Origin: a virus | Taxonomy: Duplodnaviria > Caudoviricetes | Length of the DNA stretch: 52,563 nt | Reading direction: 5' to 3' (one strand) | Virus record (IMG/VR): IMGVR_UViG_3300020183_004978 | Coordinates: 1 to 52,563 of that record | Part shown: in pieces, positions 38,842 through 51,941 of the stretch | Layout: each line of letters starts with the position of its first letter | How positions within the stretch are numbered: the stretch's first letter is position 1 | Program-made: the position numbers and the translations under genes | The notes under the pieces: generated by a model | Told to the model about the DNA's origin: nothing | Databases searched by the model: none | Seen by the model: only the letters and a program-made list of their open reading frames with translations

Positions 38842-38862
38842 ATAGAATAAATATTCCTAGGA

Positions 38863-40539
38863 TTAGTTCTCTCTCCTATCCTCCCTAGAATAAAATTCAA
38901 ACCTATCGTGTTCTGTAGGAGTGGCTAAAAGTATTCCTGGATATATTCTTCCTTTCATAGTTTCTTGATATATGTAAGACATCCAAGTCTGTTCGTAGGG
39001 ATGAGCCCACTTCGTCTCCAAGAACATCTTTCTGTTTCCCTCTTTTGATACTGTTTGCGGCCAATTACAGTAGTACACTTCTCCAGTGGCGTAAGGCACA
39101 CCCGTGTGAGACTTTATGTTTTTGAAGTTCGTAAAAGGCTCCTTTCCATAATCGTTTTCGGATTTGTTGGGGTGTTCTGGAAAATACTTCTCTCTTACGT
39201 CTTGGGGTATGTTATACCACGCCCACTGTCTTGAGTTGTCTCCGAAGAATTCTGTGAAGTTCCACTTGAGAAAATCAAAATTTTCTTTGAGCATTAGGCT
39301 CATCATTTTATCGTAAAAATCTTCTATTTTTCTTATGAAACCGCTTCTGCAAAATTCGTCTTTTCCCAAATAAAAAAACATGTCGTCTTCGAAGAAGAAG
39401 TGAAAATCTAAATCGTTTTCTTCGGCGTGTTCAGCTATGAACTGTCTTGCTCCGCATATGCCTATATTATTTTTGTGTATCTCTTCAAAACCGTATTTAT
39501 CGCACAGAAGATCGTAATCGCGGAATGTTTTTTCGTCCGTAGAGTTGTTGATTAGGTACTTTTTGGGCTTATTCAAAAAAGAATTGTCGTAAATATCAAA
39601 AGACGTGCAAAGCTTTTCAAATTGTTTCGGAGAGTTAAAAGTTAAAACGTACAGCGCAACTTTTACATCTTCAACGCTTTTCACCTCTTTTAACTCAATT
39701 TTCTCTTGCTTTGACACCAGCGAATCGTTTTTAAGGTCTTCAAAAAACTTACCCAATAATCCGTTTGATTCTATTTCGTAGTACTGTATTAATTCTGGGT
39801 ACAAATACGTCATTATAGTGAATACGCTCTCTTCGGTACCCATTAAGCCTTCGCTTAGGGTTTGATTGAGAATGCCGTAATAAATAGAATTTATTTCTTT
39901 GATGGACGATTTTGGTCCTCCAAATATTCCTCCTCTAGCAACTTTATCTACTTCAGCTTTAGAATACTGACACATATCTTTGTATGTGAATCCGTGAATT
40001 TCTACTTTTCCATCGTAAGGAAAACAAACGAAGCTAAACTTATTGAAGTACTTGTCTATCTTTTGAATAACCTTATCGTGCCAAAAATAACCCTCGTGTA
40101 CAGTATTGGTTAAGGCTCCGTCTATCCACACCAAATGAGAAGACCCAAACGGATCCAATATCGCAGCGTCGTTTAGCAAAAACATCTTAGACATTACTAT
40201 CAGGTTGTAATACTCTAATTTTGCTTGCGTGCTTTCTGTTAGCCAAGATGATTGGCTAAACCAATCTGGGTTTACTCTTATCTTTTCTATCTTTTTAAAT
40301 AGATCTCCGTTTTTTAAAAACCACTCTAAGCCTCTAACGATAACACGGGTATTGTGTTTTTTTCTTCTCTTCCAAACAAAATTTTCGTACTCTTCCTCTA
40401 TAAAAATAATCATATTGTCTTCTACTTTCATTAACTTTTCTAAGTTATTCAAGTAGTGTTCGAAACTTCTACTCCAACCCTCGGTTAGAGTGTCTCTTTT
40501 AATATTCCAAATGCCCGTAACTATGGTGATTTTACTCAT
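38863..40539 (-). CDS. HtrL/YibB(WlaTC)-like glycosyltransferase fused to a second GT-A domain
   Basis: TIVTG.W.I.R..W.RSF..Y, Y...VMSK..L, WIDG, GG.FGG, GTEE; second domain has GICGARQ, FFEDDM. Confidence 0.75.
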   Translation of the reverse strand: MSKITIVTGIWNIKRDTLTEGWSRSFEHYLNNLEKLMKVEDNMIIFIEEEYENFVWKRRKKHNTRVIVRGLEWFLKNGDLFKKIEKIRVNPDWFSQSSWLTESTQAKLEYYNLIVMSKMFLLNDAAILDPFGSSHLVWIDGALTNTVHEGYFWHDKVIQKIDKYFNKFSFVCFPYDGKVEIHGFTYKDMCQYSKAEVDKVARGGIFGGPKSSIKEINSIYYGILNQTLSEGLMGTEESVFTIMTYLYPELIQYYEIESNGLLGKFFEDLKNDSLVSKQEKIELKEVKSVEDVKVALYVLTFNSPKQFEKLCTSFDIYDNSFLNKPKKYLINNSTDEKTFRDYDLLCDKYGFEEIHKNNIGICGARQFIAEHAEENDLDFHFFFEDDMFFYLGKDEFCRSGFIRKIEDFYDKMMSLMLKENFDFLKWNFTEFFGDNSRQWAWYNIPQDVREKYFPEHPNKSENDYGKEPFTNFKNIKSHTGVPYATGEVYYCNWPQTVSKEGNRKMFLETKWAHPYEQTWMSYIYQETMKGRIYPGILLATPTEHDRFEFYSREDRREN

Positions 40540-41407
40540 TGATTCCGTTAATTTCTTCTAATATTTTATAAAAGCTCTTATTTACTTTAAAAAAATCTTG
40601 AGGCGCTTCTTTGTAATTGTCTTCATGCCACCACACATCGAAATTTAGCGTTTTAAACCACTCCTTATGATTTTGGTACATTAACCCCATTATGTGCTCT
40701 TCAAAATATAATCTCTTTTCTTCTTTAGAAATTAATCTTAAATAAAAATCAAACTTATCGACTATTTTGTTCCATAAATCTACTTTTCCACCAAAAAAAC
40801 CTCCTATTATATGCACACTTTTATCGTATTTTGTATAGTATCTCTCATTAACCGTGCCATCCCAGTAATTACGAAAGTTTTCTTTAGCTACTATAACAAA
40901 CTTATCTTCTGAAGATGAAATTAAATTTTCCAAAAATTTATCATTAAATAGAGTGCTTTCAAAGTATCCTCTATACCCAAGCATTGGCAGATATTTGTTA
41001 GGTATTATTCCTGTGTGAGATAAACCAGCATCAAACCAAAAATAATAATCGTACGTTCTATCTTCTTTTTTAAACCAAGAAAACTTAGAATATTGTATTT
41101 CCACGCATCTATCGGATTTTTTTGTTGCCTCAAAATCTTTTATAGAATTGATCATTTCTGCATATTCTGTCTTAGCTATATCGTATACTTGAAATTTTAA
41201 TTTATCTTGTGAAACTTGGTGAGTTTCATAAAAGAAATTTTTTAAATCTTCTATCTCTCTTTCAGATGTATAGCATAAAAAATCTGCTTCAGACATCTTT
41301 AAAAGTGATAAAAGGCTAAATCTATAATGATCTTTTCTACCAGACCTTCCTCCTAAGTCACCTCCATATAGGTCAGAATAAATACACGTTGTTATTTTAA
41401 CTTTCAT
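40532..41407 (-). CDS. HtrL/YibB-like glycosyltransferase
   Basis: IQYSK, YFWFDAGL, IIGGFFGG, EE.IM motifs. Confidence 0.7.
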   Translation of the reverse strand: MKVKITTCIYSDLYGGDLGGRSGRKDHYRFSLLSLLKMSEADFLCYTSEREIEDLKNFFYETHQVSQDKLKFQVYDIAKTEYAEMINSIKDFEATKKSDRCVEIQYSKFSWFKKEDRTYDYYFWFDAGLSHTGIIPNKYLPMLGYRGYFESTLFNDKFLENLISSSEDKFVIVAKENFRNYWDGTVNERYYTKYDKSVHIIGGFFGGKVDLWNKIVDKFDFYLRLISKEEKRLYFEEHIMGLMYQNHKEWFKTLNFDVWWHEDNYKEAPQDFFKVNKSFYKILEEINGINE

Positions 41408-41408
41408 C

Positions 41409-42125
41409 TTATTCTCTCATTTTTACGCACATATCAAAATCAAGATACTTTGAATCTAACTTATCCGGATAATATGCATTCCAATTATACGTCATAATAT
41501 AATGATTTGAATCTACCGTTTTATTTATGTCTGAAAAATCTTTTTTTTGAGTTATTAATGGTAATTTTGCAGAAAACGATTGTAATTTTGGATAAAGTCC
41601 TAGATACATAAATTCGTCTATGGGTTTTTGTCTATGAAAATTTTCTATTATTTTATTAGTGTCCCACTCTCTAATACATTCGCATGCTATTTTGGTTAAT
41701 ATGAACCCCGATGTACCAAAAATACCCCTATGTTCGTTTATGTCTTTTGGCGGAACTTTAGTCAAATCTACTAAATTTTCTGAAAATTTATTTAGAGGTC
41801 TATGTATAGAAGGGGCGAAATGAAAAAAACACCAATCAATATTACTTAATTCTTCTTCTATAAGAGGTATCATTTTTTTTGCGTACGGCATAAAAAATAT
41901 ATCGTCTTCAAAAACCATTGCATATTCGTAACCTCGCTCTAGTATAATATTTGCTACTTTTTGATGAGAATACGCGCAACCCATATAACTATCTGTATCA
42001 ATCGCATCAAATCTCTCAAAATCCCAATCCATGTAATCAAACTCCTTTCTAACAGATTCTAATCTATCTTTTCTTCTCTCTAAATTAATTACAAATTTTG
42101 GAATAGTCTTAAAATTAATTTTCAT
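41409..42125 (-). CDS. Glycosyltransferase family 25
   Basis: VINLERRKDR, RFDAID, GCAYSH, VFEDD. Confidence 0.85.
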   Translation of the reverse strand: MKINFKTIPKFVINLERRKDRLESVRKEFDYMDWDFERFDAIDTDSYMGCAYSHQKVANIILERGYEYAMVFEDDIFFMPYAKKMIPLIEEELSNIDWCFFHFAPSIHRPLNKFSENLVDLTKVPPKDINEHRGIFGTSGFILTKIACECIREWDTNKIIENFHRQKPIDEFMYLGLYPKLQSFSAKLPLITQKKDFSDINKTVDSNHYIMTYNWNAYYPDKLDSKYLDFDMCVKMRE

Positions 42126-42876
42126 AAATTAAATGGTTTTTGTTGTCATAACCTCTTCTATGTACAAATATTACTGAACCTATTTCGGTAGCCTTTTCTA
42201 TATTTCTGTTTAAGTCAGTCCAATAACCATAAGTGTCTATGTCGTTAGTTGGGCAATTATACCTAACAGATAATATAGAAAGAATGCTCTGATCATGTCT
42301 ATGATTATTTGAAAAACCATCTATGCACCCAGGTATTTGAGCATATTTCCAACCTTCTATTATCATTTGTTTATACTTCCCTTCACTTTTGAATCCAAAA
42401 ATACCTGAAGATAGTTGTTTTCCGTTCAACTCGTCTTCGGTAGCATGCATAATTTTTATACAATCTTCGTGAGTAAAATTTTTATTTACGTGAGTGTCTC
42501 CGACTAAAAATATATCTTCACTATCTATTAAATCAAATATGGGCTTTAAACTTTTTAGTGCACAAACTCCTGCGTCTAGCCATAAAACATTTTTGGAAAC
42601 CTGAATAGAATCATATAAAGACTCCATTTTTAAGAAATGACATTTTGTTTTTATTGAAGATATGTTTTTATAAAAATCATAATTTTTATTTGCGTCTACT
42701 AAAAAAACTTTTTTAAGATTTTTCAATCTTGATATCTCTGATGCGTCTAATCCAAAATCACATACAAAGATAGCATCTACCAAATGTAAGCTATCTTTAT
42801 GAATGCTACTTATTAAGGTCAATAAAGATTCAAAATATGGACTATTAGCTCCAGTTATTACGATATTGTTATGCAT
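42115..42876 (-). CDS. DUF1647-like GT-A fold protein
   Basis: ITGA.S.YF, DFGL, LWLDAG, HRHDQSILSIL. Confidence 0.7.
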   Translation of the reverse strand: MHNNIVITGANSPYFESLLTLISSIHKDSLHLVDAIFVCDFGLDASEISRLKNLKKVFLVDANKNYDFYKNISSIKTKCHFLKMESLYDSIQVSKNVLWLDAGVCALKSLKPIFDLIDSEDIFLVGDTHVNKNFTHEDCIKIMHATEDELNGKQLSSGIFGFKSEGKYKQMIIEGWKYAQIPGCIDGFSNNHRHDQSILSILSVRYNCPTNDIDTYGYWTDLNRNIEKATEIGSVIFVHRRGYDNKNHLIYEN

Positions 42877-43684
42877 TTTTATTGTTTATGTAAGTTTGTA
42901 TTATTTTCTCTGGAAACATATATTTTTTTGCCAATTCAAAATTAGCTTTTACTGAATCTATTTTTGATAGATACAGTTCGGGCGTTAACGTGTCTAAAAT
43001 TTGTGCTACATGTTCCGGTTCTGTGAAAAAGAACATGCCGTTAGAATCAAAAAATTTCCCTATATTTTTTATTCCTAAATAAATTGGAACTGTTCCTGAT
43101 AGAAAACAATCTAATAGTTTTTCGGAAAAATAATCTCCATCATCATTATTTTCTATGACTATAGAAAACCTATAGTCTTTTAAACCTTTTATTTTAAAAT
43201 CTATGGGTTTTTCTGGTCCCGTGCCATAAAAATCGACTTTATTGTGTTTTATAGCTTCATACACTCTAAATCTCATTTTGTGATAAGAATTCCATTGTTT
43301 GCAAGAAAAAATAAAACTTGTCATTTTAGATTTTTCATGTAAGTTAATATCTTCTTCTCTTAGCCACGTCCCTCCATGGGGAACATACACCGCATTTTCT
43401 GCTCTATTTAGCATATCAGTACTATGAGTGAAAATATTTTTAAAATTATTTTTACTTTTTACTACGTTATTGTAATTATCTCCATTTATTATAGAAGGTT
43501 CTACTATCCAAGCATAGTTTTGTTTATCTTCTCTTATTTTAGACGTGAAACACATTCTGTCTACGTATATTGCTATATCGTATTCTTCTGTGTTTCTAGT
43601 CCAATCGACTCCTGGATGTATATATCTCGATAAACCGGGTTGACCGATTAAGTTTTCATCAAATAGCTTAATAATCTCATTCAT
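42869..43684 (-). CDS. GT10-like (alpha-1,3-fucosyltransferase family) glycosyltransferase
   Basis: YRFSIVIEN...DYFSEKLLDCF..GTVPIYLG, the GT10 donor-binding motif. Confidence 0.85.
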   Translation of the reverse strand: MNEIIKLFDENLIGQPGLSRYIHPGVDWTRNTEEYDIAIYVDRMCFTSKIREDKQNYAWIVEPSIINGDNYNNVVKSKNNFKNIFTHSTDMLNRAENAVYVPHGGTWLREEDINLHEKSKMTSFIFSCKQWNSYHKMRFRVYEAIKHNKVDFYGTGPEKPIDFKIKGLKDYRFSIVIENNDDGDYFSEKLLDCFLSGTVPIYLGIKNIGKFFDSNGMFFFTEPEHVAQILDTLTPELYLSKIDSVKANFELAKKYMFPEKIIQTYINNKNA

Positions 43685-43689
43685 ATTTT

Positions 43690-44448
43690 TTATTTTTGAT
43701 ACAATAATCTCAATATGTTATCTATTGATTTTTTATTTTCTTCTCTATTGTAAGGTCTCGGAAAATGACAATCTATATACGCATCTTGAGTAATTTTATT
43801 AAAATCGTACCTATTCCAATAATCTCTATCTAGTCTATCTGTAGCATAGCCTTCTCTAAATCCTCTAGAAAGTTTTATTATTCTGTGTTCATTATCTATT
43901 TCAAAATCTCGTACACATTTTCCTATATATAACTCATCTGTATCCCACTTTCTATTATGTTGTATGTCAAAACTATCTAACCTCTCAATAAATTCATAAT
44001 ATGAGCAATTTAATTTTAATATTTCTTTATACGTGCTTCCCATTGCTAAATTATAGCACATGGGATATCTCGTTTGTCTATAATATCCGTAAGCGTCAGA
44101 AGTGTATATTACAATTTGATCGTCTTTTGCATTATTAGCATTATTTAAAAAATAAGATTTTAACATCGGTAACATATCGATGTCAGAAGTTAAATACGTT
44201 TTATGTTCATATAATGAAGTCGCATACAATCTAGCGACTTGAGATTGAAAAGAAGTTTCTATGTTTTTTACTTTTTTGTAACCTACTATTATGCAGTTTT
44301 CTTCTTCTTTAATAAAATTTTCTTCCCCTATTATTACTAATATAGGAGTAACTCCTATAACGTTATTCCAAGCATCTTTTATTATTTGCCAAAAACCATC
44401 ATACTCTGGATTATTATCAGTTGCTACTATAACATAATCTATATTCAT
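43690..44448 (-). CDS. Putative GT-A fold glycosyltransferase
   Basis: Q..RL, TSDIDMLP (DxD), YPMCY, W.TDE, D.H.PRP. Confidence 0.6.
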   Translation of the reverse strand: MNIDYVIVATDNNPEYDGFWQIIKDAWNNVIGVTPILVIIGEENFIKEEENCIIVGYKKVKNIETSFQSQVARLYATSLYEHKTYLTSDIDMLPMLKSYFLNNANNAKDDQIVIYTSDAYGYYRQTRYPMCYNLAMGSTYKEILKLNCSYYEFIERLDSFDIQHNRKWDTDELYIGKCVRDFEIDNEHRIIKLSRGFREGYATDRLDRDYWNRYDFNKITQDAYIDCHFPRPYNREENKKSIDNILRLLYQK

Positions 44449-45101
44449 AAGAGAGTGTTATTATTTAATACCCATATTGAATCTGACTGAATCGCGTCTT
44501 CGGCTACATATTTAAAATATAGCTGTACATATTTTTTTTTCTGTAAATATTTTTTTATTTCTTCGTACATTGTTTGATTTTTCCATATTTCTGTATGTTC
44601 GCATTCTATATGAAAAGATAGTATATTATGTATTTTTTCTTTAAAACTTAATAAAACTTCATATGTTAACCCTTCTACGTCTATTTTGCAAAGATCTATT
44701 TTTTTATTTATCCTTTTTATCAAATCCTCTCCCGTAATAGTTTTTATTTTTATTTTTTGTAAACCTGAACCTTGTCTTTCGTACCACGTATCCTTTCTAT
44801 TATATAGAGAACTGGTGCCTGCATCTGCTCCTAAAACTTGATAAAAAATTCTTTCTCCTCTTTCTATATAGATTGCATCCTTTATTATATTAAAATTAGG
44901 ATAATCTTTACTTATTTTTTCGTATTGTATTGGATTAGGCTCTACTACCCACACGTTTTCGTCTTTTATATCGAAATTTTTTCTTAACGCATTTGCATCA
45001 TGACCGTGCATAGAACCTATTTCTAATACGACTTTAGGATTTATATTAGTTTTTTGTTTTATTGTATTAATATATTCTATCATACTTTTATAGATAACCA
45101 A
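44445..45101 (-). CDS. FkbM family methyltransferase
   Basis: LEIGS..G.D, VEPNP, KIDVEG..YEVL, QSD.IW. Confidence 0.85.
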   Translation of the reverse strand: MVIYKSMIEYINTIKQKTNINPKVVLEIGSMHGHDANALRKNFDIKDENVWVVEPNPIQYEKISKDYPNFNIIKDAIYIERGERIFYQVLGADAGTSSLYNRKDTWYERQGSGLQKIKIKTITGEDLIKRINKKIDLCKIDVEGLTYEVLLSFKEKIHNILSFHIECEHTEIWKNQTMYEEIKKYLQKKKYVQLYFKYVAEDAIQSDSIWVLNNNTLL

Positions 45102-46359
45102 CGATCCTATTTACCCAACCTTTAGATTCAGAGTGTGGCCAAACTACCCAATATTTAGGTTGAGTAACTGTTTGAAACTCTCTCCATATTTTACAAAATC
45201 CATCTGTGTCCTGCATTAAGCGCTGTATTTCCTCTTTAGTTATGTCTTGTCTGTGAACCGTTTCTTCGTTCTCGCCGTGAAAAGCTACCACCCAAAAATC
45301 GTAGTCTTTTTCTGGCAGAGATCCGTGACCCACGTCTATGCAGTGTTTGAAGACCCTAGAAAAAGAAGACAGCCACAGTTCCTCGTCTTCTATTGGTGGA
45401 TTTGGAGGGTAGTAGTTGTCTATGGTATACTTTTGAATTGCTCTCCTACTAAACAGCATACCTGCGTACTTTTCGTAATCTCTCAGCGTTCTAACTTTAC
45501 CAAAACCGTAGGGACCATCGTGACCTTCTTGTTCCAGTCCATCCATGCCAAAAAGTTTCCTATTTATCAAGTGAGACTTTGCGTTTTTCTCTGACCACTG
45601 CGGATCGTCTCCCCAAACCTGCTTCCTGTAGCTCCTGGTGTACTCATGCCAGCATATAACTTTATGGGGATGGAATATATCGTATCCCCAAGAGTAAGCT
45701 CTGGCAGCTATCGAGATCTCTTCCCCGTGAAACAGGTAATCGGGGTTGTGTTGAACCTCCTCGCAAAACTTTCCAAGCGTAAAACAGAAGTGAGCAGAGA
45801 AAAACCTACCTGGAACGGGGAGCGTCCTCTCTTGCCAGTTCTTTACGGTCTCGGGTTTGAAAAATACCGCACCTTCTGGTATGAACCTATCGAAGACCAT
45901 TTGCCAAGGTTCTTGTGCGCGACCTTCCGGATCGTTGTGAGGTTGGTAAGAAGAAACGTAAGCGGTTAATAGAGGTTTCTTGTGTCCCTCTTTTTGTAAA
46001 TCTTTGACCATCTTGATCAACTCTTGGTCCCAATTCTTTACGAATCTGTGATGTGAGTCCAAGTGCAAAGTATACTCTTGTTTTGGCAACTCCTGTTCGC
46101 AGTAAAGCTTTTGCAGAGAGTTTCTTGCCCAGCAAACGCCCTTGGTTTCTTTGTAGTGAACGTCTATTATCTTGAACCTACTATCTTCTTTGTACTTGGA
46201 TAGGTCGTCGAAACCATCCTCTGGGTTGTACTGTCTACAGATGGCTATGGTAAGCTTTTCTGGGTTTTTTGCGTTAGCTAAAAGATCTTCTATGGTAGGT
46301 ATCAACTCTGGATCCCTGTAAGAAGCTATCTGAACGAATATAGTATTTTTATTACTCAT
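45088..46359 (-). CDS. GT60-like polypeptide/hydroxyproline GlcNAc transferase, paralog 2
   Basis: IFVQIASYRDPE, GVCWAR, LDSHHRF..NWD, FHGEEI..AARA..WGYD.F.P. Confidence 0.8.
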   Translation of the reverse strand: MSNKNTIFVQIASYRDPELIPTIEDLLANAKNPEKLTIAICRQYNPEDGFDDLSKYKEDSRFKIIDVHYKETKGVCWARNSLQKLYCEQELPKQEYTLHLDSHHRFVKNWDQELIKMVKDLQKEGHKKPLLTAYVSSYQPHNDPEGRAQEPWQMVFDRFIPEGAVFFKPETVKNWQERTLPVPGRFFSAHFCFTLGKFCEEVQHNPDYLFHGEEISIAARAYSWGYDIFHPHKVICWHEYTRSYRKQVWGDDPQWSEKNAKSHLINRKLFGMDGLEQEGHDGPYGFGKVRTLRDYEKYAGMLFSRRAIQKYTIDNYYPPNPPIEDEELWLSSFSRVFKHCIDVGHGSLPEKDYDFWVVAFHGENEETVHRQDITKEEIQRLMQDTDGFCKIWREFQTVTQPKYWVVWPHSESKGWVNRIVGYL

Positions 46360-46364
46360 AGATT

Positions 46365-47618
46365 TTATTCGTATTTTATAACACCTTCAATAACATCGCA
46401 CCAGCCCTTTGATTTTGAGTGAGGCCAAACTCTAGTAGAGTATGGTAATTGCAAGCTTTCGTACTCTCTCCAAATGTGTATGAATTGATCTGTAGCAGAA
46501 GCGTTCATAATAGATTTTATTTCGTTTTCATCTGCGTCTTTTCTGTGTAAATCTTTGCCTTCTTCGTCTAAGAAAGCGACGGCAAAGAAATCGTAATCTG
46601 TCTCTGTAAGAGATCCTTTGTACACGTTTATGCAGTGTTTTTGAACGTTCATCAAGCCAGATTCATAGTCTCCTTGAGTAGGAGGAAAGTTGTTATCTCT
46701 TGTGTAAGAGTGAATTTGCCTAGTAGAGAATTTTAATCCAGAGTAAACTTCGTAATCGTACAAACTTCTGACGTTTCCGAAAGCGTAGGCTCCCATTGTT
46801 TTTTTTCTTTGGCAAGAAGAACACCCGTCTTCCATGCCAAATAAAATTCTGAACCTCTTGTAAGAGTTCTTATCCCTCTCTGACCAATCGGAGCTATCGT
46901 CCCAGTGTTTTTTCTTTCCTTCTCTAGTGTATTCGTGATAAACTATGGGTTTGTGAGGAGAAAATAAATCGTACCCCCAAGTGTACGCTCGAGCAGCCAA
47001 AGACGTCTCTTCTCCGTGAAAGTAAAGCTCTGGATCGTAGGGCACTTCTCTAGCAAAAGATCCGAGGGTGAAGACGAAGTGCGCTGATAAGAACCTTGTT
47101 GGAAATGGTTCCTTCAAATCCCTCCAGTTGTCCACGTGATGGGGTCTCAGGAACGCGGCGCCTTCGGGTAAAAACCTATCTATGTTTAGACCCCACACTT
47201 CTTGCAATTTACTCTCCGTTTTAGGATCGTAAGAAGGAAGGTACGAGCTTATAAGGGGTTTTTCGTAACCCTTACACCTTAAAAAATTAACATAATCCTT
47301 TAACGTAGAGTCCCAGTGTTTTTCGAATCTGTGATGTGAGTCCAACTGTAAGTAATAGTCCTCCCCAGAGTACAGTTTTTGTATCTCGCTTCTGGCCCAA
47401 CAAACCCCCTGAGCGTCTTTGTAGTCTATGTCAAGTATAGAAAACCTATCATCGTTTTCATACTCTTTAAGATCGTCCCACTCGTCTTCTAGAGCGTGTT
47501 GCCACGCGATGGCAATTCTTAAGTTTTTGGGGTTTTTTGCTTTATTAATTAAATCCCTTAGAGTTTTTTTAAGTTCAGGATCCCTATAAGAGGCGATCGA
47601 AACGAATGTTAATTTCAT
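46365..47618 (-). CDS. GT60-like polypeptide/hydroxyproline GlcNAc transferase, paralog 1
   Basis: FVSIASYRDPE, GVCWAR, YYLQLDSHHRF..WD, FHGEE..LAARAYTWGYDLFSP, R.L.DYE.Y.G. Confidence 0.8.
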   Translation of the reverse strand: MKLTFVSIASYRDPELKKTLRDLINKAKNPKNLRIAIAWQHALEDEWDDLKEYENDDRFSILDIDYKDAQGVCWARSEIQKLYSGEDYYLQLDSHHRFEKHWDSTLKDYVNFLRCKGYEKPLISSYLPSYDPKTESKLQEVWGLNIDRFLPEGAAFLRPHHVDNWRDLKEPFPTRFLSAHFVFTLGSFAREVPYDPELYFHGEETSLAARAYTWGYDLFSPHKPIVYHEYTREGKKKHWDDSSDWSERDKNSYKRFRILFGMEDGCSSCQRKKTMGAYAFGNVRSLYDYEVYSGLKFSTRQIHSYTRDNNFPPTQGDYESGLMNVQKHCINVYKGSLTETDYDFFAVAFLDEEGKDLHRKDADENEIKSIMNASATDQFIHIWREYESLQLPYSTRVWPHSKSKGWCDVIEGVIKYE

Positions 47619-47676
47619 ATGTAACCTTATGTATTTAGTGACTGCTTAAAAAATAATAAAGTCAAGCATCATTATT

Positions 47677-50600
47677 TTACAGTTGTACGCAATATGGATC
47701 GTCGCAATCCGCTACGGTACCGTCGTTTCCTCCAAAATTAGTGGTATCAAAGGTCATTTCTATAAAACTATCGATTTCAAAACACTCTCCAAAATTTGAA
47801 GAATTTGCTTTGTAATAATTACCTACCGTTAACGCGTTATTTGTCACTAATACTGAAGTACCGCCATCGCTACACCTAGTGGCGTTATACTTGTAGTTCG
47901 TTGGTATAGGAGTACCTGTAGGAGTGGGTGATACTGTATTACTTGGTGTGACTGTGTTACTTGGTGTGACTGTGTTACTTGGTGTGACTGTCGGTGTTTT
48001 CGTAATAGAAGGAGTGGGAGTGGGAGTTGCTGGTACGCAACACGATCCGTTGCTAATAACCGTAAACACCGCTGTGGTTCCATAACTACACCCTGGACAT
48101 GAGATAGCTGTTTCTTGTATCGATATGTTATTAGAATAGGGTCTATTTGCATCTACGCATATTTCAGAACCTGATTCGGCTCCACCCTCAAAGAACAATC
48201 CACTGCAATCGAAATAGTTAAACGAACTGTTATTAGTTATTACGGCCTCTTGACAATCACAATAGTGTGGAGATTTGCTAGTGTCTACACACAGCGGCGA
48301 ACTTCCATAACTAGTATTTCCTGTCGATACAGATCCGGAACGTAACACTCCATTGCAATCGAAGTAATATATGTCTCCTGCTGTTGTAACATTTATATTC
48401 ACAGAAGTAACACAATTATTACATGGAGTTGTACTTGGAGTATTAGTTGGAGTGACAGTGTTGCTAGGTGTCACTGTGTTACTCGGTGTCACTGTGTTGC
48501 TAGGCGTCATTGTGCTACTAGGTGTCACTGTGTTGCTAGGCGTGACTGTGTTACTTGGCGTCACTGTGTTGCTAGGTGTCACTGTGTTGCTAGGCGTGAC
48601 TGTATTACTTGGTGTGACTGTGTTACTTGGCGTGACTGTGTTACTTGGTGTTTCACTAGGTGTCACAGTGTTACTTGGTGTCACTGTATTACTTGGCGTG
48701 ACTGTGTTGCTAGGCGTGACTGTGTTACTTGGCGTGACTGTGTTACTTGGTGTCACTGTATTACTTGGCGTGACTGTGTTGCTAGGCGTGACTGTGTTAC
48801 TTGGCGTCACTGTGTTGCTAGGTGTGACTGTGTTGCTAGGCGTGACTGTATTACTTGGTGTGACTGTGTTACTTGGCGTGACTGTGTTACTTGGTGTTTC
48901 ACTAGGTGTCACTGTGTTGCTAGGTGTGACTGTGTTACTTGGCGTCACTGTATTGCTAGGTGTGACTGTGTTGCTAGGCGTGACTGTGTTACTTGGTGTG
49001 ACTGTGTTGCTAGGCGTGACTGTGTTGCTAGGCGTGACTGTGTTACTTGGTGTGACTGTGTTACTTGGCGTGACCGTGTTACTCGGTGTTTCACTAGGTG
49101 TCACTGTGTTGCTAGGTGTGACTGTGTTACTTGGTGTCACTGTGTTGCTAGGTGTGACTGTGTTACTTGGCGTCACTGTGTTGCTGGGTGTGACTGTATT
49201 ACTTGGTGTGACCGTGTTACTTGGCGTGACTGTGTTACTTGGTGTGACCGTGTTACTTGGTGTTTCACTAGGTGTCACTGTGTTACTTGGTGTCACTGTA
49301 TTACTTGGAGTGACTGTATTACTTGGTGTGACTGTGTTACTTGGCGTGACCGTGTTACTTGGTGTCACTGTATTACTTGGAGTGACTGTATTACTTGGTG
49401 TGACCGTGTTACTTGGCGTGACTGTATTACTTGGTGTGACCGTGTTACTTGGTGTTTCACTAGGTGTCACTGTGTTACTTGGTGTCACTGTGTTACTTGG
49501 AGTGACTGTATTACTTGGTGTGACTGTGTTACTTGGCGTGACCGTGTTACTTGGTGTCACTGTATTACTTGGTGTGACTGTGTTACTTGGCGTGACTGTA
49601 TTACTTGGCGTAACTGTGTTACTTGGCGTGATGCTAGGTGTGACAGTACTAGATGGCGTTATAGATGGAGTTTTGGTTACAGAAGGAGTTGGGGAAGGAG
49701 ATACGGGAGCGCAAGTAGTGATCGAGGTGATCACTCCATTGTTGTCTGTAACGACCAGGTAGTTAGTGGATCCGTTCAACCACTTTATCACGTGACCAGA
49801 AGCACCGGTCTTGAGAGGAACGCTCAACACTCCACTGTAGTTTTTCGTGTATAATGTGATACCTGTGACTATTGCAGCGCCCTCTGAAGAGTAAGAATAC
49901 ACACTACCCATCAAAAACGCTGCGTCTGCGCAAACTACTCCATCGTATGTTGGGTGTTCGTATACCAGATCACACTCTGTGAAATTTATAATTTCTCCAT
50001 CAGTATTTGTTTCTATGGAATACCTACCTCCGGACCAAGTTATGAGATCGTTGGTTCCGTACGTGTAAAGGGGAACGCTTAGCGTGTTTCCTACTCTTAC
50101 TGTGTATACAACGATACCCAGTCTCATGGATCCAACATTATAGGAGTATACTGTTCCTATCGGAGATGTCAATACATCTGAACAGCTCACATTTCCATAA
50201 CTTGTTTCTTCCCTGGGAGTCGTAGAAGTTCCTATAGTGGAACTAGGAGTGTTGGTGGGTGTCACCGTAACTGTCAAGCTAGGAGTGACGCTGGTAGTAG
50301 TCGTAGGGCTGTTAGTGGTGGTGGGCGTAATAGTTTTGGTAGGGTTGGGAGTGACTTGAGGGGTTACGCTGGGAGTATTTGTAACAGTAACGCTTGGGGT
50401 TACAGTGTTTGTGGGAGTGATAGAAGGAGTGGCTGTAGAGGTAGGTGTTACGCTTGGCGATAGTCCAGTAGTAGAAGTGTTCGTTGGCGTGATTGTGATT
50501 GTGGGAGTGTTAGTGGCGGTAACGCTAGGAGTGACAGAAGGAGTTGCCCCCACCAGTGAAACTGTACTAGACTCCGGCGAAGGCGAGCACGTATCGTTAT

Positions 50601-50769
50601 TTATTAGCGTAACGCTTGTCGCTGAAAAGGGAATGTCTATTGGCACTCCCGCGACCAAGTCTACCGTATCTACGTCAGACATCACTAGGTTTGTAGTGTC
50701 GTAGTATATGCTGTACGGACCGCTAGCGAGGTTGTAAGTGGTTAATCGTATAGTGACTTGTCTTCCCAT
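47677..50769 (-). CDS. Mucin-like Thr/Pro/Ser-rich protein with (TPSNTV)n stalk and Cys-rich domains; probable virion appendage
   Basis: 1030 aa; about 60 TPSNTV units; duplicated G.VYSY..LSVPL.T..I.W domain; no signal peptide seen. Confidence 0.8.
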   Translation of the reverse strand: MGRQVTIRLTTYNLASGPYSIYYDTTNLVMSDVDTVDLVAGVPIDIPFSATSVTLINNDTCSPSPESSTVSLVGATPSVTPSVTATNTPTITITPTNTSTTGLSPSVTPTSTATPSITPTNTVTPSVTVTNTPSVTPQVTPNPTKTITPTTTNSPTTTTSVTPSLTVTVTPTNTPSSTIGTSTTPREETSYGNVSCSDVLTSPIGTVYSYNVGSMRLGIVVYTVRVGNTLSVPLYTYGTNDLITWSGGRYSIETNTDGEIINFTECDLVYEHPTYDGVVCADAAFLMGSVYSYSSEGAAIVTGITLYTKNYSGVLSVPLKTGASGHVIKWLNGSTNYLVVTDNNGVITSITTCAPVSPSPTPSVTKTPSITPSSTVTPSITPSNTVTPSNTVTPSNTVTPSNTVTPSNTVTPSNTVTPSNTVTPSNTVTPSNTVTPSETPSNTVTPSNTVTPSNTVTPSNTVTPSNTVTPSNTVTPSNTVTPSNTVTPSNTVTPSNTVTPSETPSNTVTPSNTVTPSNTVTPSNTVTPSNTVTPSNTVTPSNTVTPSNTVTPSNTVTPSETPSNTVTPSNTVTPSNTVTPSNTVTPSNTVTPSNTVTPSNTVTPSNTVTPSNTVTPSNTVTPSETPSNTVTPSNTVTPSNTVTPSNTVTPSNTVTPSNTVTPSNTVTPSNTVTPSNTVTPSNTVTPSNTVTPSNTVTPSNTVTPSETPSNTVTPSNTVTPSNTVTPSNTVTPSNTVTPSNTVTPSNTVTPSSTMTPSNTVTPSNTVTPSNTVTPTNTPSTTPCNNCVTSVNINVTTAGDIYYFDCNGVLRSGSVSTGNTSYGSSPLCVDTSKSPHYCDCQEAVITNNSSFNYFDCSGLFFEGGAESGSEICVDANRPYSNNISIQETAISCPGCSYGTTAVFTVISNGSCCVPATPTPTPSITKTPTVTPSNTVTPSNTVTPSNTVSPTPTGTPIPTNYKYNATRCSDGGTSVLVTNNALTVGNYYKANSSNFGECFEIDSFIEMTFDTTNFGGNDGTVADCDDPYCVQL
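48430..49660 (-). repeat. 18-nt coding tandem repeat (TPSNTV) with five 12-nt TPSE interruptions
   Basis: Interruptions near 48650, 48896, 49088, 49262, 49454; variation is mostly synonymous. Confidence 0.95.
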
Positions 50770-50789
50770 TCTTTTTTATCTGTACGCTT

Positions 50790-51941
50790 TTAACATATTA
50801 TACTACCGTCTAAGGTTATGTAAACAAAGTTGATACCCGCTGATATGGTTACTTGGTAAGTGCAACCGAATCCCGATGAAGGACAAGTAGATGGATCTCC
50901 TGCGATAGTTTTATTGTCCACGTCGCTAAACGTCACCGTGTCTCCGATATTCAGAGGGCCTATGTTAACTAGATTAGCACAACTAGTTGTCAGTGCTCCT
51001 ATATTTATTTGCGCGCCCGTATTTATTTGATATTGTAAGTTTCCATTAGTGTTCACGTACTTACCGAACACTTCCAATTCAGTATAGGGTGTAGTGCTTG
51101 GAGTGACAGTGTTAGTTGGAGTGACAGTGTTAGTTGGAGTGACAGTGTTGCTTGGCGTGACTGTGTTACTTGGTGTGATGCTTGGCGTCACTGTGCTACT
51201 TGGAGTGACAGTGTTAGTTGGAGTAGGGCTTGGAGATCCTCCGGGAGTTTTCGTTACAGTTGGAGTTACTGTGTTAGTGGGAGTATTCGTAGGCGTTTTG
51301 GTATTGGTAGGAGTGTTGGTGGGCGTGACTGTGTTCGAAGGTGTTTGACTTGGAACGACTATCGAGGAGGAATCCTGGTCTATCTCAAACTCAAAACCTT
51401 GTGGGTTTATAAAGTAACACACGTAGTTTGGGTTGGTGATTATAGCGAAAGCTTGAGAGTATATTATGTTTCCCACCTTTACGTTGGAAGCATTCATATC
51501 TAGCAAATTTCCGTTTCCATCGTCATATATATTGTAATTGGCGCTGCTGAGAAGGAAACTCTTCCTTGCTATCTGTTCTCCAAAAACGTTTCTAGGAATG
51601 TACAAAGCCGCTATTTCGGCTCCTGATTGGGTTGGAAAGAATCTTACGTCCTCGTCCATGGAACCCGATGCCGCTGTAGATTGGTAGCTAGAATCGTAAG
51701 CCGATCCACTTCCAAGCAAACTACCAGAAATGTAATTTCTGTAAAAAAGTTGTTCTATTAAGTTGTAATTGATTTTGAATTGGGGGGTTTTTCGACTAGA
51801 GGTTACAGGAGTATTAATCCCCCTTACTATCGAAATACCTACGCTATTAAAATTACTATCAGAATATGAAGCAGAGTACTTTAACTTTACGGGAGCGGTC
51901 GAAATATCAGAAAACTTAATAGTATTCTTTGACCTACTCAT
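50790..51941 (-). CDS. Structural protein: phage N-terminal domain + TP[ST]NT[VP] linker + Cys-containing C-terminal domain
   Basis: IPR..FGE.I...SF......DDGNGNL......VGNIIY, followed by a T/P-rich tract. Confidence 0.7.
   Translation of the reverse strand: MSRSKNTIKFSDISTAPVKLKYSASYSDSNFNSVGISIVRGINTPVTSSRKTPQFKINYNLIEQLFYRNYISGSLLGSGSAYDSSYQSTAASGSMDEDVRFFPTQSGAEIAALYIPRNVFGEQIARKSFLLSSANYNIYDDGNGNLLDMNASNVKVGNIIYSQAFAIITNPNYVCYFINPQGFEFEIDQDSSSIVVPSQTPSNTVTPTNTPTNTKTPTNTPTNTVTPTVTKTPGGSPSPTPTNTVTPSSTVTPSITPSNTVTPSNTVTPTNTVTPTNTVTPSTTPYTELEVFGKYVNTNGNLQYQINTGAQINIGALTTSCANLVNIGPLNIGDTVTFSDVDNKTIAGDPSTCPSSGFGCTYQVTISAGINFVYITLDGSIIC

What the first reader, a model, noticed from the sequence alone, without database searches (positions are those of the whole stretch)
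38863..51941. Candidate phage-encoded mucin-type O-glycosylation system: (TPSNTV)n proteins followed by two GT60-like initiating transferases and a glycan-extension cassette
Seen: two genes carrying T/P/S tandem repeats (about 60 TPSNTV units in the 1030 aa protein) are followed directly by nine co-oriented, tightly packed enzyme genes: two GT60-like paralogs, an FkbM methyltransferase, an unclassified DxD protein, GT10, DUF1647-like, GT25 and two HtrL/YibB-like proteins. Established: characterised GT60 enzymes (Dictyostelium Gnt1 on Skp1 hydroxyproline; Dictyostelium Gnt2 and Trypanosoma cruzi OGNT2 on Thr of mucin-like proteins) start alpha-GlcNAc O-glycans on polypeptides, and GT10 enzymes are fucosyltransferases. 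Inference: substrate, initiator, extenders and cap are encoded together, so the phage may build its own mucin-like glycan coat in the host cytoplasm. Possible roles are a stiff stalk, protease or antibody shielding, or surface mimicry. No flippase, polymerase or export genes are present, which argues against host capsule or LPS synthesis.
Basis: partly seen in the sequence, partly recalled or inferred. Interest (0 to 1): 0.92.

Follow-up and report, generated by a model that had tools for sequence, protein, structure and literature searches.

The report
Phage mucin-like fibres with own glycosyltransferases
A large freshwater phage carries two proteins with long Thr-Pro-Ser repeats directly followed by nine soluble sugar-adding and methylating enzymes, headed by two relatives of the enzymes that start mucin-type sugar chains in protists, so the phage probably sugar-coats its own fibre proteins inside the host cell.

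Summary
The 1030-aa protein has 64 exact TPSNTV units. The nine enzyme genes that follow are co-oriented and tightly packed. Both GT60 calls are strong (Pfam PF11397, E 4e-68 and 2e-66). FkbM, GT10, GT25 and one HtrL domain are confirmed; "DUF1647-like" is not.

New evidence supports the interpretation but does not prove it.
- In 67 related viral loci with upstream sequence, 47 have a strongly T/P/S-rich gene in the co-oriented block before GT60. Such genes make up 76/186 ORFs in that block and 10/826 elsewhere in the loci.
- GT60 plus a two-domain HtrL-GT gene is a conserved core that brackets a variable, AT-rich enzyme set.
- The same core lies beside unrelated TP-repeat proteins in bacterial genome assemblies (a T9SS cargo, a VgrG).
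- A GT60b model is closest to animal polypeptide GalNAc-transferases.
- None of 380 cassette ORFs has two or more hydrophobic segments.
- The closest isolate lacks both GT60 and TP-rich genes.
- Phage XacN1, which has the core, was reported to contain virion glycoproteins.

No transfer to the repeats has been shown. Rivals are host-envelope remodelling, other protein targets, and DNA glycosylation.

I found no paper describing this. The scan has noted the same theme on other genomes. Confidence 0.55; interest 0.72.

The parts
51977..52561 (-). C-terminal part of a gp106-like protein. The frame is open at the contig end, so the N-terminus lies outside the window. Context gene directly upstream of the block.
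   Evidence: 50% identity to residues 153-337 of Flavobacterium phage immuto gp106. The family is also present in Mel-JY01, RM378 and LR756508. In immuto these paralogs lie just upstream of the tail fibre and tail spike genes.
50790..51941 (-). 383-aa protein: globular N-terminal domain (about 1-190), T/P/S repeat tract (about 195-285), and a Cys-containing C-terminal domain. Candidate acceptor 1.
   Evidence: Translation. T+P+S reaches 0.73 in a 60-aa window. The N-terminus is weakly collinear with immuto gp105 (two HSPs, E 0.002 each) and matches LR756508 (E 1e-6). phrog_15511 matches the repeat part.
47677..50769 (-). 1030-aa protein with three T/P/S tracts (about 59-168, 343-762 and 902-935) separated by globular, partly Cys-rich domains. 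Candidate acceptor 2.
   Evidence: 64 exact TPSNTV units and 251 Thr. The globular domains match no Pfam family and have no BLAST relatives among the ORFs of the viral loci L007-L086, the records G001 and G003, phage immuto and the bacterial loci L120-L156.
48443..49631 (.). 18-nt tandem repeat array that encodes the TPSNTV units.
   Evidence: Tandem Repeats Finder: period 18, 67.7 copies, 79% matches; higher-order period 192 nt.
46365..47618 (-). GT60a, a 417-aa GT60-family glycosyltransferase with an extra beta-rich C-terminal domain. Proposed initiating enzyme.
   Evidence: PF11397 E 3.8e-68 (231 bits, cut-off 21). phrog_24687 E 7e-138. DSH motif at 93-95. 48% identical to GT60b.
45088..46359 (-). 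GT60b, a 423-aa GT60-family glycosyltransferase. It is the copy orthologous to the single GT60 of most relatives. Proposed initiating enzyme.
   Evidence: PF11397 E 1.5e-66. 63-67% identity to 80 viral loci. Invariant A12-Y14-R15-D16, D101-S102-H103, H211-G212-E213-E214 and H238 in 26 sequences. AF2 model pLDDT 85.5. Foldseek ranks 1-10 are all GT27 polypeptide GalNAc-transferases.
44445..45101 (-). FkbM-family methyltransferase, 218 aa. Proposed glycan O-methyl cap. First gene of the AT-rich variable part.
   Evidence: PF05050 E 5e-11. TIGR01444 51.8 bits against cut-off 37.7. GC 0.27.
43690..44448 (-). 252-aa protein without a family. Probably a GT-A-type glycosyltransferase.
   Evidence: No Pfam, PHROG or NCBIfam hit. 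DID at 89-91. The Atlas gives only a weak lead to GT8/nucleotide-diphospho-sugar transferases (score 0.94, 131-136 shared features).
42869..43684 (-). GT10-like glycosyltransferase (fucosyltransferase family), 271 aa.
   Evidence: PF00852 E 1.8e-9, 37.9 bits against cut-off 23.9.
42115..42876 (-). 253-aa protein, possibly a GT8-like glycosyltransferase.
   Evidence: Only PF01501 at E 1.3e-3, 18.8 bits, below the cut-off of 24.3. A 50% identical homolog sits in the G001 cassette.
41409..42125 (-). GT25-family glycosyltransferase, 238 aa. Part of the commonest four-gene cassette of relatives.
   Evidence: PF01755 E 2.6e-16. Homologs in 50 ORFs of the related loci.
40532..41407 (-). 291-aa protein, probably HtrL/YibB-like. 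Conserved partner next to the terminal gene.
   Evidence: No Pfam hit. Atlas feature score 0.97 with 24 of 30 hits in HtrL_YibB-bearing clusters. Homologs in 58 ORFs of the related loci.
38863..40539 (-). 558-aa two-domain glycosyltransferase: N-terminal HtrL_YibB domain and C-terminal GT2-like GT-A domain. Conserved terminal gene of the cassette.
   Evidence: PF09612 E 9e-18 on residues 3-253. Invariant FNSP, NSSD, G..R and EDD motifs in the C-terminal half. AF2 model pLDDT 82. Foldseek best hits are two-GT-domain enzymes (K4CP, LH3, Mimivirus R699, LARGE1, PmHS2), E about 1e-11, but TM only 0.25-0.31. 40-43% identical homologs in XacN1, Xoo-sp13, CM1 and RAS14.
38545..38841 (-). 98-aa protein equal to the C-terminal domain of the gp105/gp106 family. 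It marks the downstream border of the block and is preceded by the recurring motif at 38847-38854.
   Evidence: E 1e-20 to immuto gp105 residues 257-357. Motif ATAAATAT at 38847.

Best explanation
The block is a self-contained cytoplasmic protein O-glycosylation module of a T4-like freshwater myovirus.

Proposed mechanism:
- The two T/P/S-repeat proteins are fibre-like virion proteins, and their repeat tracts are the acceptors.
- GT60a and GT60b start the chains. By analogy with all characterised GT60 enzymes, they put alpha-GlcNAc from UDP-GlcNAc on Thr of the TP-rich tracts.
- The conserved two-domain HtrL-GT enzyme and its HtrL-like neighbour extend the primer.
- The exchangeable, AT-rich middle set (GT25, GT8-like, GT10, an unclassified GT-A protein and the FkbM methyltransferase) builds and caps a strain-specific outer glycan.
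- All steps use soluble enzymes in the host cytoplasm before virion assembly.
- The result would be stiff, protease-resistant, mucin-like stalks on the particle.

Shown here: the repeats, the enzyme families, the conserved gene order, the enrichment of TP-rich neighbours, and the lack of membrane components.

Inferred, not shown: the acceptor, the sugars, the order of steps, and virion location.
For: (1) Family and fold.
- Both copies match PF11397 far above the cut-off. DxH, GEE and ASYRD-type residues are invariant in 26 sequences.
- The AF2 model of GT60b (pLDDT 85.5) has GT27 polypeptide GalNAc-transferases as its ten best PDB matches (E 1e-10 to 1e-8).
- Reviews describe GT60 as the polypeptide alpha-GlcNAc-transferases that start mucin-type O-glycans in protists, some capped with fucose. 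They also describe GT60 as Gnt1 acting on Skp1 (passages of PMC8724618, and PMC6939170).

(2) Co-occurrence in viruses.
- There are 80 related loci. Of the 67 with at least 1 kb upstream, a gene with >= 70% T+P+S in a 60-aa window lies in the co-oriented block before GT60 in 47, and directly adjacent in 34.
- Such a gene lies up- or downstream in 56 of the 67.
- In clusters of GT60 at 90% identity, 10 of 14 have one upstream and 11 of 14 have one on either side.
- Rate in the upstream block is 76/186 ORFs, against 10/826 ORFs elsewhere in the loci.

(3) The repeat is the only shared feature. The globular domains of the window's two proteins have no relatives among those neighbours.

(4) Independent replicate in bacterial genome assemblies.
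- The GT60 plus HtrL-GT pair recurs there.
- TP-rich ORFs make up 11/95 of ORFs within two genes of the pair, against 5/166 further away (Fisher p 0.013).
- These neighbours belong to unrelated classes: a T9SS-tailed protein, a VgrG, a laminin-G-like protein and a PqqD fusion.

(5) Genome-wide contrast. The closest isolate, phage immuto, has no GT60 or HtrL-GT match and 0/161 TP-rich ORFs. Two near-complete GT60-bearing records have 7/284 and 3/276.

(6) No membrane or export parts. 0 of 380 cassette ORFs in 70 loci have two or more hydrophobic segments, and there are none in the window.

(7) Experiment in a relative. Phage XacN1 carries the GT60 (46% identity) and the HtrL-GT (43%). Its authors report at least two virion glycoproteins and suggest that the phage GTs make them (passages of PMC5852040).

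(8) Modular design. The core is conserved and the middle is variable (cassette sizes 4 to 12 genes). In the window the middle has GC 0.27-0.29, against 0.41-0.46 for GT60 and the repeat genes.
Against: - No biochemical or proteomic datum links these enzymes to these repeats.
- Gene adjacency could simply reflect a shared hypervariable fibre region.
- 11 of 67 loci fail the strict threshold. L063-L065 have no TP tract in the upstream protein.
- In XacN1-type phages the cassette contains a carbamoyltransferase and lies near the DNA polymerase gene. The nearest PT-linker protein there is about 5 kb away on the opposite strand.
- In most related loci a DNA polymerase gene follows the cassette.
- TP-rich ORFs also occur away from GT60 in G001 and G003.
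- GT25, GT8, GT10 and HtrL families are classically linked to LPS/LOS synthesis.
- Virion location of the two window proteins rests on weak similarity only.
- The bacterial enrichment is modest, and ORFs there were called mechanically in GC-rich DNA.
- Foldseek TM-scores are about 0.5 for GT60b and 0.25-0.31 for the HtrL-GT.
Confidence: 0.55

Rival explanations
1. Host envelope remodelling. The cassette makes or alters a host LPS, LOS or capsule oligosaccharide during infection, for example to block superinfection or to stop progeny sticking to debris. The TP-repeat genes are only neighbours.
For: - GT25, GT8-like, GT10 and HtrL/YibB are families typical of LPS/LOS loci.
- A jumbo-phage review reads variable GT clusters of cyanophages as makers of diversified outer polysaccharides (passages of PMC7824862). 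A cyanophage paper reads its 13 GTs the same way (passages of PMC12801897).
- The variable, AT-rich middle part resembles serotype cassettes.
Against: - Characterised GT60 enzymes act on polypeptides, and the model resembles polypeptide GalNAc-transferases most.
- 0 of 380 cassette ORFs in 70 loci has two or more hydrophobic segments, so no polytopic membrane protein such as a flippase or polymerase is present. Seven have one borderline segment.
- TP-rich neighbours are enriched in viruses and in bacterial assemblies.
- XacN1 virions contain glycoproteins.
- The phage looks lytic and T4-like.
Confidence: 0.15
2. Protein glycosylation, but of other targets. The enzymes decorate capsid, tail or host proteins, as in mycobacteriophages. 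The TP tracts are plain flexible linkers that happen to be common in the fibre genes next door.
For: - Mycobacteriophage glycans sit on capsid and tail-tube C-termini (as summarised in PMC12619734; the original paper was not held).
- In the window the block lies just upstream of the scaffold-like and major capsid genes.
- Some cassette-bearing loci lack strong TP tracts.
- TP-rich ORFs also occur away from GT60.
Against: - The TP tract is the only feature shared by otherwise unrelated neighbours in phages and bacteria.
- Enrichment is 76/186 against 10/826 ORFs.
- The closest GT60-free isolate has no TP-rich ORF at all.
Confidence: 0.15
3. DNA hypermodification. The transferases glycosylate hydroxymethylated bases of phage DNA to evade restriction.
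For: - Weak, sub-threshold hits of the 558-aa C-terminal domain to TAGT (E 7e-4, 20 bits against cut-off 27.5) and to phrog_842, a beta-glucosyl-HMC glucosyltransferase family (E 8e-6).
- A DNA polymerase gene is adjacent in relatives and in XacN1.
- Phage GT-A enzymes are known to build diverse glycans on DNA (passages of bioRxiv 10.1101/2023.12.21.572611).
Against: - Those DNA GTs co-occur with 5mYOX/TET or ThyS-like genes.
- Of five large cassette-bearing records, only one has a PF00303 gene. Two of the three that are >= 90% complete have none.
- None has Tet_JBP, but that search's control rang nowhere, so it is weak.
- The same gene pair lies in bacterial chromosome-sized contigs next to secreted TP-repeat proteins.
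- The GT60 fold is closest to polypeptide transferases.
Confidence: 0.07

Closest known systems
CAZy GT60 / Pfam PF11397 polypeptide alpha-GlcNAc-transferases of protists (Dictyostelium Gnt1 on Skp1 hydroxyproline; Dictyostelium and T. cruzi mucin-type pp-alpha-GlcNAcTs)
   Same: - Strong family match, DxH motif and GT-A fold.
- Soluble enzyme, like cytoplasmic Gnt1.
- Thr/Pro-rich repeat proteins as the likely acceptors.
- Downstream two-domain glycosyltransferase and a fucosyltransferase-family gene. These parallel PgtA in the Skp1 pathway and the fucose caps mentioned in PMC6939170 and PMC8724618.
   Different: - Encoded by a bacteriophage, and by some bacteria.
- Carries an extra beta-rich C-terminal domain of about 90-120 residues.
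- The Pfam match skips profile positions 45-95.
- No prolyl hydroxylase in the cassette.
- Activity and sugar are untested.
Animal GT27 polypeptide GalNAc-transferases (mucin-type O-glycosylation initiators)
   Same: Best structural matches of the GT60b model (ranks 1-10). Act on dense Ser/Thr/Pro tandem repeats. Have a catalytic GT-A domain plus a C-terminal accessory domain.
   Different: - Sequence identity is only 11-14%, and there is no PDB match by sequence.
- GT27 enzymes are Golgi membrane proteins with a ricin-type lectin domain (from the review passage, and recalled knowledge).
- The phage enzymes are soluble.
Mycobacteriophage virion glycosylation (Freeman et al. 2023, known to me only from citing passages and reference lists)
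   Same: Phage-encoded glycosyltransferases that modify the phage's own structural proteins in the host cytoplasm (summary in PMC12619734).
   Different: There the glycans sit on C-termini of capsid and tail-tube subunits. No GT60, no dedicated tandem-repeat acceptor genes and no conserved GT60 plus HtrL-GT core are described in what I could read. The original paper was not held.
Serine-rich-repeat adhesin glycosylation islands of Gram-positive bacteria (GtfA/GtfB with accessory Sec) - recalled, not searched here
   Same: - Acceptor with long Ser/Thr repeats encoded beside its enzymes.
- Cytoplasmic O-GlcNAc initiation.
- Strain-variable extending transferases, including two-domain enzymes.
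   Different: The initiator there is a GT4 (GT-B fold) pair, and export uses SecA2/SecY2. The nine enzymes here gave no group-1 (GT4-type) glycosyltransferase family, and none has a membrane segment.
Xanthomonas/Stenotrophomonas jumbo phages XacN1, Xoo-sp13, CM1 and RAS14
   Same: They carry the GT60 (44-46% identity) and the HtrL-GT (40-43%) as the two ends of one cassette. XacN1 virions contain at least two glycoproteins.
   Different: The middle of their cassette holds a carbamoyltransferase and two other ORFs. There is no TP-repeat gene directly upstream; a giant protein with PT linkers lies about 5 kb away on the other strand. The authors did not assign the family or name an acceptor in the passages I read.

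Membership tests
CAZy GT60 / Pfam PF11397 (GlcNAc) | Significant match to the family profile above the curated cut-off | tested here: met
   231 and 225.7 bits against a cut-off of 21. Re-found on the DNA.
CAZy GT60 / Pfam PF11397 (GlcNAc) | GT-A fold with a conserved DxH metal-binding motif | tested here: met
   DSH at 93-95 and 101-103, invariant in 26 sequences. The AF2 model has an alternating beta/alpha N-terminal domain. The best PDB matches are GT-A enzymes.
CAZy GT60 / Pfam PF11397 (GlcNAc) | Transfers alpha-GlcNAc from UDP-GlcNAc to Thr or hydroxyproline of a polypeptide | not testable with these tools
   Needs an enzyme assay or glycoproteomics.
Mucin-type O-glycosylation system | Acceptor with dense Ser/Thr/Pro tandem repeats | tested here: met
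   64 TPSNTV units; three tracts with >= 60% T+P+S in 30-aa windows.
Mucin-type O-glycosylation system | Repeats actually carry O-glycans | not testable with these tools
   The only indirect datum is the report of glycoproteins in XacN1 virions.
GT10 fucosyltransferases | Match to the GT10 catalytic C-terminal domain above the cut-off | tested here: met
   PF00852, 37.9 bits against 23.9, residues 116-233. The donor sugar is untested.
GT25 | Match to PF01755 above the cut-off | tested here: met
   60.5 bits against 24.
FkbM methyltransferases | Match to PF05050 and TIGR01444 above the cut-offs | tested here: met
   43.4 bits against 22.7. 51.8 bits against 37.7.
HtrL/YibB | Match to PF09612; equivalence to E. 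coli YibB | tested here: inconclusive
   The Pfam domain is met for the 558-aa protein (65.2 bits against 24.1). The NCBIfam equivalog score is far below its cut-off (73.4 against 264.9), so it is a domain relative and not YibB. The 291-aa protein is HtrL-like only by an Atlas lead.
DUF1647 | Match to the family profile | tested here: not met
   No such hit for the 253-aa protein at E <= 0.1; only a sub-threshold GT8 hit.
Phage DNA glycosyltransferases (TAGT / JGT-like GT-A) | Family match above the cut-off, and co-occurrence with a 5-hydroxymethylpyrimidine-forming enzyme | tested here: not met
   TAGT 20 bits against a cut-off of 27.5. PF00303 is present in 1 of 5 cassette-bearing records and absent from 2 of the 3 that are >= 90% complete. 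Tet_JBP is in 0 of 5, but the control rang nowhere.
Polysaccharide (O-antigen/capsule) gene cluster | Flippase, polymerase, or initiating or exporting membrane proteins in the cluster | tested here: not met
   No hydrophobic segment in the window's 11 proteins. 0 of 380 cassette ORFs in 70 related loci have two or more segments.
Serine-rich-repeat adhesin (aSec) islands | GtfA/GtfB GT4 initiator and SecA2/SecY2 export genes | tested here: not met
   No Glycos_transf_1/GT4 family among the nine enzymes, and no membrane protein. The family definition is recalled.

The most novel reading that the evidence does not exclude
GT60 plus the two-domain HtrL-GT may be the core of an undescribed, prokaryote-wide cytoplasmic mucin-type O-glycosylation system.
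- Its recognition element would be the Thr-Pro repeat tract itself.
- It would be used by phages for virion fibres, and by Bacteroidota, Gemmatimonadota, Verrucomicrobiota and others for proteins that leave the cell (T9SS cargo, VgrG spikes).
- A swappable enzyme set would write strain-specific glycan 'serotypes' on phage particles.
- Such a system would also be a plausible prokaryotic or viral relative of the eukaryotic GT60/GT27 mucin initiators.
Probability: 0.3. Interest if true: 0.85.

Novelty: new variant of a known kind. Interest (0 to 1): 0.72.

Why it matters
Self-encoded glycosylation of virion proteins is established for chloroviruses and mimiviruses, and recently for mycobacteriophages. 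No mucin-type system with GT60 initiators and dedicated tandem-repeat acceptors has been described for viruses of bacteria in the papers I could search.

The family is not rare. At least 7339 protein clusters at 90% identity match GT60b. 292 viral contigs encode a relative.

If the reading is right:
- Many abundant freshwater phages wear a variable glycan coat. This bears on host recognition, adhesion to polysaccharide matrices, resistance to proteases and grazers, and on how metagenomic 'auxiliary' glycosyltransferases are interpreted. At present these are usually read as host-surface or DNA modifiers.
- There would be a compact, soluble, membrane-free enzyme set for making mucin-like glycoproteins in bacteria.

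Tried and rejected
- Megablast of the whole block against isolated phages found nothing.
- Sequence search of GT60b against PDB chains gave only a chance hit (E 0.2).
- NCBIfam has no model for either GT60 copy.
- Pfam found nothing in the two repeat proteins, the upstream gene, or the 98- and 106-aa genes. The 366-aa gene gave only a chance hit at E 0.038.
- The globular domains of both repeat proteins had no BLAST relatives (E <= 1e-3) among the ORFs of the viral loci L007-L086, G001, G003, immuto and the bacterial loci L120-L156.
- BLASTP of the 291-aa protein against the 558-aa protein was not significant.
- The idea noted earlier, that a structural gene is split by the island, is only partly borne out.
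  - The upstream ORF is the C-terminal part of a gp106-like gene cut by the contig end, not an N-terminal half.
  - The 383-aa N-terminus plus the 98-aa protein could be the two ends of a gp105-like gene, but the N-terminal match is weak.
- The recurring motif ATAAATAT occurs 18 times against 5.2 expected. It has no copy on the strand that would serve minus-strand genes between 38855 and the window end. Promoter and terminator scans were at chance level: 43 promoter-like sites found against 44.5 expected, and 12 terminator-like sites against 8.5 expected (sd 3.4). The transcription unit is therefore not settled.
- One literature search was badly framed. It returned only one paper naming PF11397, on a brown alga.
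- Searches for 'GT60' with 'phage' gave no study of these enzymes in phages. One preprint merely lists GT60 among viral CAZy genes.
- A search combining bacteriophage, glycosyltransferase, threonine-rich, O-glycosylation and tail fiber also gave no such study.
The XacN1 supplementary figure and tables, which may name the glycoproteins, could not be seen.
- I did not use the complex-prediction, sequencing-run or read-laying tools.

Full report
WHAT THE WINDOW IS. The window is a whole IMG/VR virus record of 52,563 bases, estimated to be 32% complete. It is the structural region of a T4-like myovirus. PHROG matches include the major head protein (34859-36523), tail sheath, baseplate hub, tail-fibre proteins and a 1794-aa collagen-like fibre. 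The major head protein is 55.7% identical to that of Flavobacterium phage vB_FspM_immuto and 49% identical to that of Microcystis phage Mel-JY01. The order scaffold-like gene, major head protein, PhoH, head-completion gene is the same as in immuto. All long ORFs lie on the minus strand.

THE OBSERVATION. It is correct at the given coordinates.
- The 1030-aa protein has 64 exact TPSNTV units (67 TPS.TV), 251 Thr, and three T/P/S tracts separated by globular, partly Cys-rich domains.
- Its DNA shows an 18-nt array of 67.7 copies with a 192-nt higher-order period.
- The 383-aa protein has a shorter tract.
- The nine genes that follow overlap or are at most 5 nt apart (coordinates).
- Pfam confirms two GT60 (PF11397) proteins at E 3.8e-68 and 1.5e-66, FkbM, GT10, GT25 and an HtrL_YibB domain.
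- PHROGs knows the GT60 proteins as phrog_24687.
- 'DUF1647-like' is not supported. The 253-aa protein gives only a sub-threshold GT8 hit.
- The 291-aa and 252-aa proteins have only language-model leads, to HtrL-like and to GT8/nucleotide-sugar-transferase clusters.
- None of the 11 proteins has a membrane-like segment.

THE GT60 ENZYMES.
- The paralogs are 48% identical.
- In an alignment of 26 sequences, the DSH motif and the ASYRD-type and HGEE-type residues are invariant.
- The AF2 model of GT60b (pLDDT 85.5, pTM 0.81) has a GT-A-like N-terminal part and a beta-rich C-terminal domain from about residue 333.
- Its ten best PDB matches are all GT27 polypeptide GalNAc-transferases, the animal initiators of mucin-type O-glycans (E 1.3e-10 to 1.1e-8, TM about 0.5). 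Wall-teichoic-acid and other GT-A enzymes follow.
- There is no PDB relative by sequence and no NCBIfam model.
- The family did not ring in 14 control genomes.
- Review passages state that GT60 comprises the polypeptide alpha-GlcNAc-transferases that start mucin-type glycans in protists, some capped with fucose, and Gnt1 of the cytoplasmic Skp1 pathway.

THE CONSERVED CORE AND THE VARIABLE MIDDLE.
- 292 viral contigs encode a relative of GT60b, and 80 loci were kept.
- At least 7339 protein clusters at 90% identity match at E <= 1e-5. All are unnamed or generically named.
- In 70 of the 80 loci a homolog of the 558-aa gene closes the cassette.
- Cassette sizes are 4 genes in 36 loci, 5 in 11, 7 in 12, 8 in 5, 9 in 5 and 12 in 1.
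- The commonest form is GT60, GT25, the 291-aa homolog, then the 558-aa homolog.
- In the window the GT60 genes have GC 0.41-0.43. The five genes from FkbM to GT25 and the 291-aa gene have 0.27-0.29. The 558-aa gene has 0.36. This fits an exchangeable middle.
- The 558-aa protein has an HtrL domain and a C-terminal half with invariant GT2-type motifs (FNSP, NSSD, G..R, EDD).
- Its model (pLDDT 82, pTM 0.54) best matches enzymes with two glycosyltransferase domains: K4 chondroitin polymerase, LH3, Mimivirus R699, LARGE1 and heparosan synthase 2. TM-scores are low, 0.25-0.31.
- The jumbo phages XacN1, Xoo-sp13, CM1 and RAS14 have the same two end genes, around a carbamoyltransferase and two other ORFs.

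THE CO-OCCURRENCE TEST. I called ORFs mechanically, kept the longest non-overlapping ones, and flagged those with >= 70% T+P+S in a 60-aa window.
- Of 67 loci with at least 1 kb upstream of GT60, 34 have such a gene directly upstream, 47 have one in the co-oriented upstream block, and 56 have one up- or downstream.
- By clusters of GT60 at 90% identity, the counts are 7, 10 and 11 of 14.
- In the upstream block 76 of 186 ORFs of >= 150 aa are flagged, against 10 of 826 elsewhere in the loci.
- 11 loci fail the threshold. I inspected seven of them and one locus where the TP gene lies downstream instead (L009).
  - L042, L052, L058, L069 and L071 still have shorter TP tracts.
  - L079 has a 125-aa TP-rich ORF on the other strand.
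  - L065, which stands for L063-L065, has none.
- The globular domains of the window's two proteins have no relatives among those neighbours, so the repeat tract is the shared feature.
- Genome-wide counts of flagged ORFs among ORFs of >= 100 aa:
  - The complete, GT60-free genome of phage immuto has 0 of 161.
  - G001 (98% complete) has 7 of 284, one of them next to GT60.
  - G003 (90% complete) has 3 of 276, two of them next to GT60.
  - The window has 2 of 42, both next to GT60.
- So TP-rich genes also occur away from GT60.

REPLICATE IN BACTERIAL GENOMES.
- A scan of one genome per species found 37 loci, mostly in metagenome-assembled genomes of Saprospiraceae and other Bacteroidota, Gemmatimonadaceae, Verrucomicrobiota and others. 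Some lie on contigs of 0.4-3 Mb.
- The GT60 plus HtrL-GT pair is adjacent there too.
- Among 27 loci with enough context, 9 have a TP-rich ORF (>= 60%) within two genes, and 12 have one anywhere in the flank. That is 11 of 95 near ORFs against 5 of 166 far ORFs (Fisher p 0.013).
- The neighbours are of unrelated kinds:
  - a protein with a T9SS sorting domain above the cut-off (L124);
  - a VgrG with Phage_GPD at E 2e-90 and a (TP)n tail (L151);
  - a laminin-G-like protein (L146);
  - a PqqD-domain fusion (L140);
  - a protein weakly like the crAss muzzle protein (L138).
- Several N-termini read like twin-arginine signals. That is my reading of the printed sequences against a recalled consensus.
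- ORF calling in GC-rich DNA is noisy, so this replicate is supportive rather than strong.

ARE THE REPEAT PROTEINS VIRION PARTS? Only indirect evidence exists.
- The ORF upstream of the block is the C-terminal part of a gp106-like gene (50% identity). The 98-aa gene downstream equals the C-terminal domain of the same paralog family (E 1e-20).
- The 383-aa N-terminus is weakly collinear with immuto gp105 and matches a nearby gene in LR756508.
- In immuto these paralogs lie directly before the tail fibre and tail spike genes.
- C-termini of TP-rich neighbours in related loci match phrog_8510, 'virion structural protein' (E 1e-14).
- XacN1 virions were reported to hold at least two glycoproteins, which the authors tentatively ascribed to ORF328 and ORF334. 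ORF334 is the GT60 homolog.

RIVALS.
- Host-envelope remodelling is the usual reading of such clusters, and the extender families fit it. The lack of any polytopic membrane component in 380 cassette ORFs, the polypeptide-type initiator and the TP-rich neighbours speak against it.
- DNA glycosylation is suggested by weak sub-threshold hits of the 558-aa C-terminus and by the neighbouring DNA polymerase genes. However, only one of five large cassette-bearing records has a thymidylate-synthase-family gene, and two of the three near-complete ones have none. The Tet_JBP search found none, but its control rang nowhere. The pair also occurs in bacterial chromosome-sized contigs.
- The enzymes might glycosylate other proteins, with the TP tracts as mere linkers. 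The data cannot exclude this.

COMPARISON AND NOVELTY.
- The two lead enzymes are members of GT60 by sequence and fold. Their chemistry is untested.
- The system works like mucin-type initiation plus extension. It resembles the Skp1 pathway in being cytoplasmic, and the serine-rich-repeat adhesin islands of Gram-positive bacteria in encoding acceptor and enzymes together (the latter is recalled). It differs from each in enzyme family, carrier or export.
- Virion glycosylation by phage enzymes is known for mycobacteriophages, which I know only through citing text.
- My searches found no paper on GT60 or PF11397 in phages, or on TP-repeat acceptors.
- The scan itself has noted the same theme on several other genomes.
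- I class it as a new variant of a known kind.

VERDICT. Observation confirmed; interpretation partly supported. The best explanation is self-glycosylation of TP-repeat fibre proteins, started by GT60, at confidence 0.55. Interest is 0.72.

Noticed in passing
window 11853-27512: A second 'fibre plus enzymes' module. The 1794-aa collagen-like fibre is followed by GT4-like and GT2-like genes, a sulfotransferase, an APS kinase, a GT17-methyltransferase fusion, a DUF6445 protein and a GT2 gene.
   Followed up: partly
window 38545-38841 and 50790-51941: The 98-aa protein equals the C-terminal domain of the immuto gp105/gp106 family. The 383-aa N-terminus weakly resembles the N-terminal two thirds of gp105. 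Together they may be the ends of one gene into which the repeat-plus-enzyme island was inserted.
   Followed up: partly
window 7532-38854, + strand: The motif ATAAATAT occurs 18 times against 5.2 expected. 15 of the copies are on the + strand at or before 38854, mostly before minus-strand structural genes. There is no + strand copy inside the block 38855-52563.
   Followed up: partly
L124, L128, L148, L152 (bacterial genome loci): The TP-repeat proteins next to the GT60 plus HtrL-GT pair have N-termini that read like twin-arginine signals. L124 also has a T9SS sorting domain above the cut-off; L128 has one only below the cut-off. This hints at glycosylation in the cytoplasm before export.
   Followed up: partly
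L151:15052-17523: A VgrG (T6SS spike) with a long (TP)n C-terminal tail lies two genes from a GT60 gene on a 465-kb Achromobacter contig.
   Followed up: no
L140:9230-9955: A PqqD-like (peptide-recognition) domain fused to SQTPMITPSV-type repeats lies directly before GT60 plus HtrL-GT on a 1.17-Mb Gemmatimonadaceae contig.
   Followed up: no
related viral loci, e.g. L025:15044-17779: In most related loci the cassette is followed by a 125-140-aa gene and a DNA polymerase of about 900-960 aa (phrog_262, E 2e-55). Upstream lies a family of large proteins that share an N-terminus beginning MAYQNINQY.
   Followed up: no
NC_055915.1 49172-59988 (L116/L118): Phage immuto lacks GT60 but has its own 13-gene sugar cluster, with aminotransferases, an epimerase and a 'pilin glycosylation protein'.
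   Followed up: no
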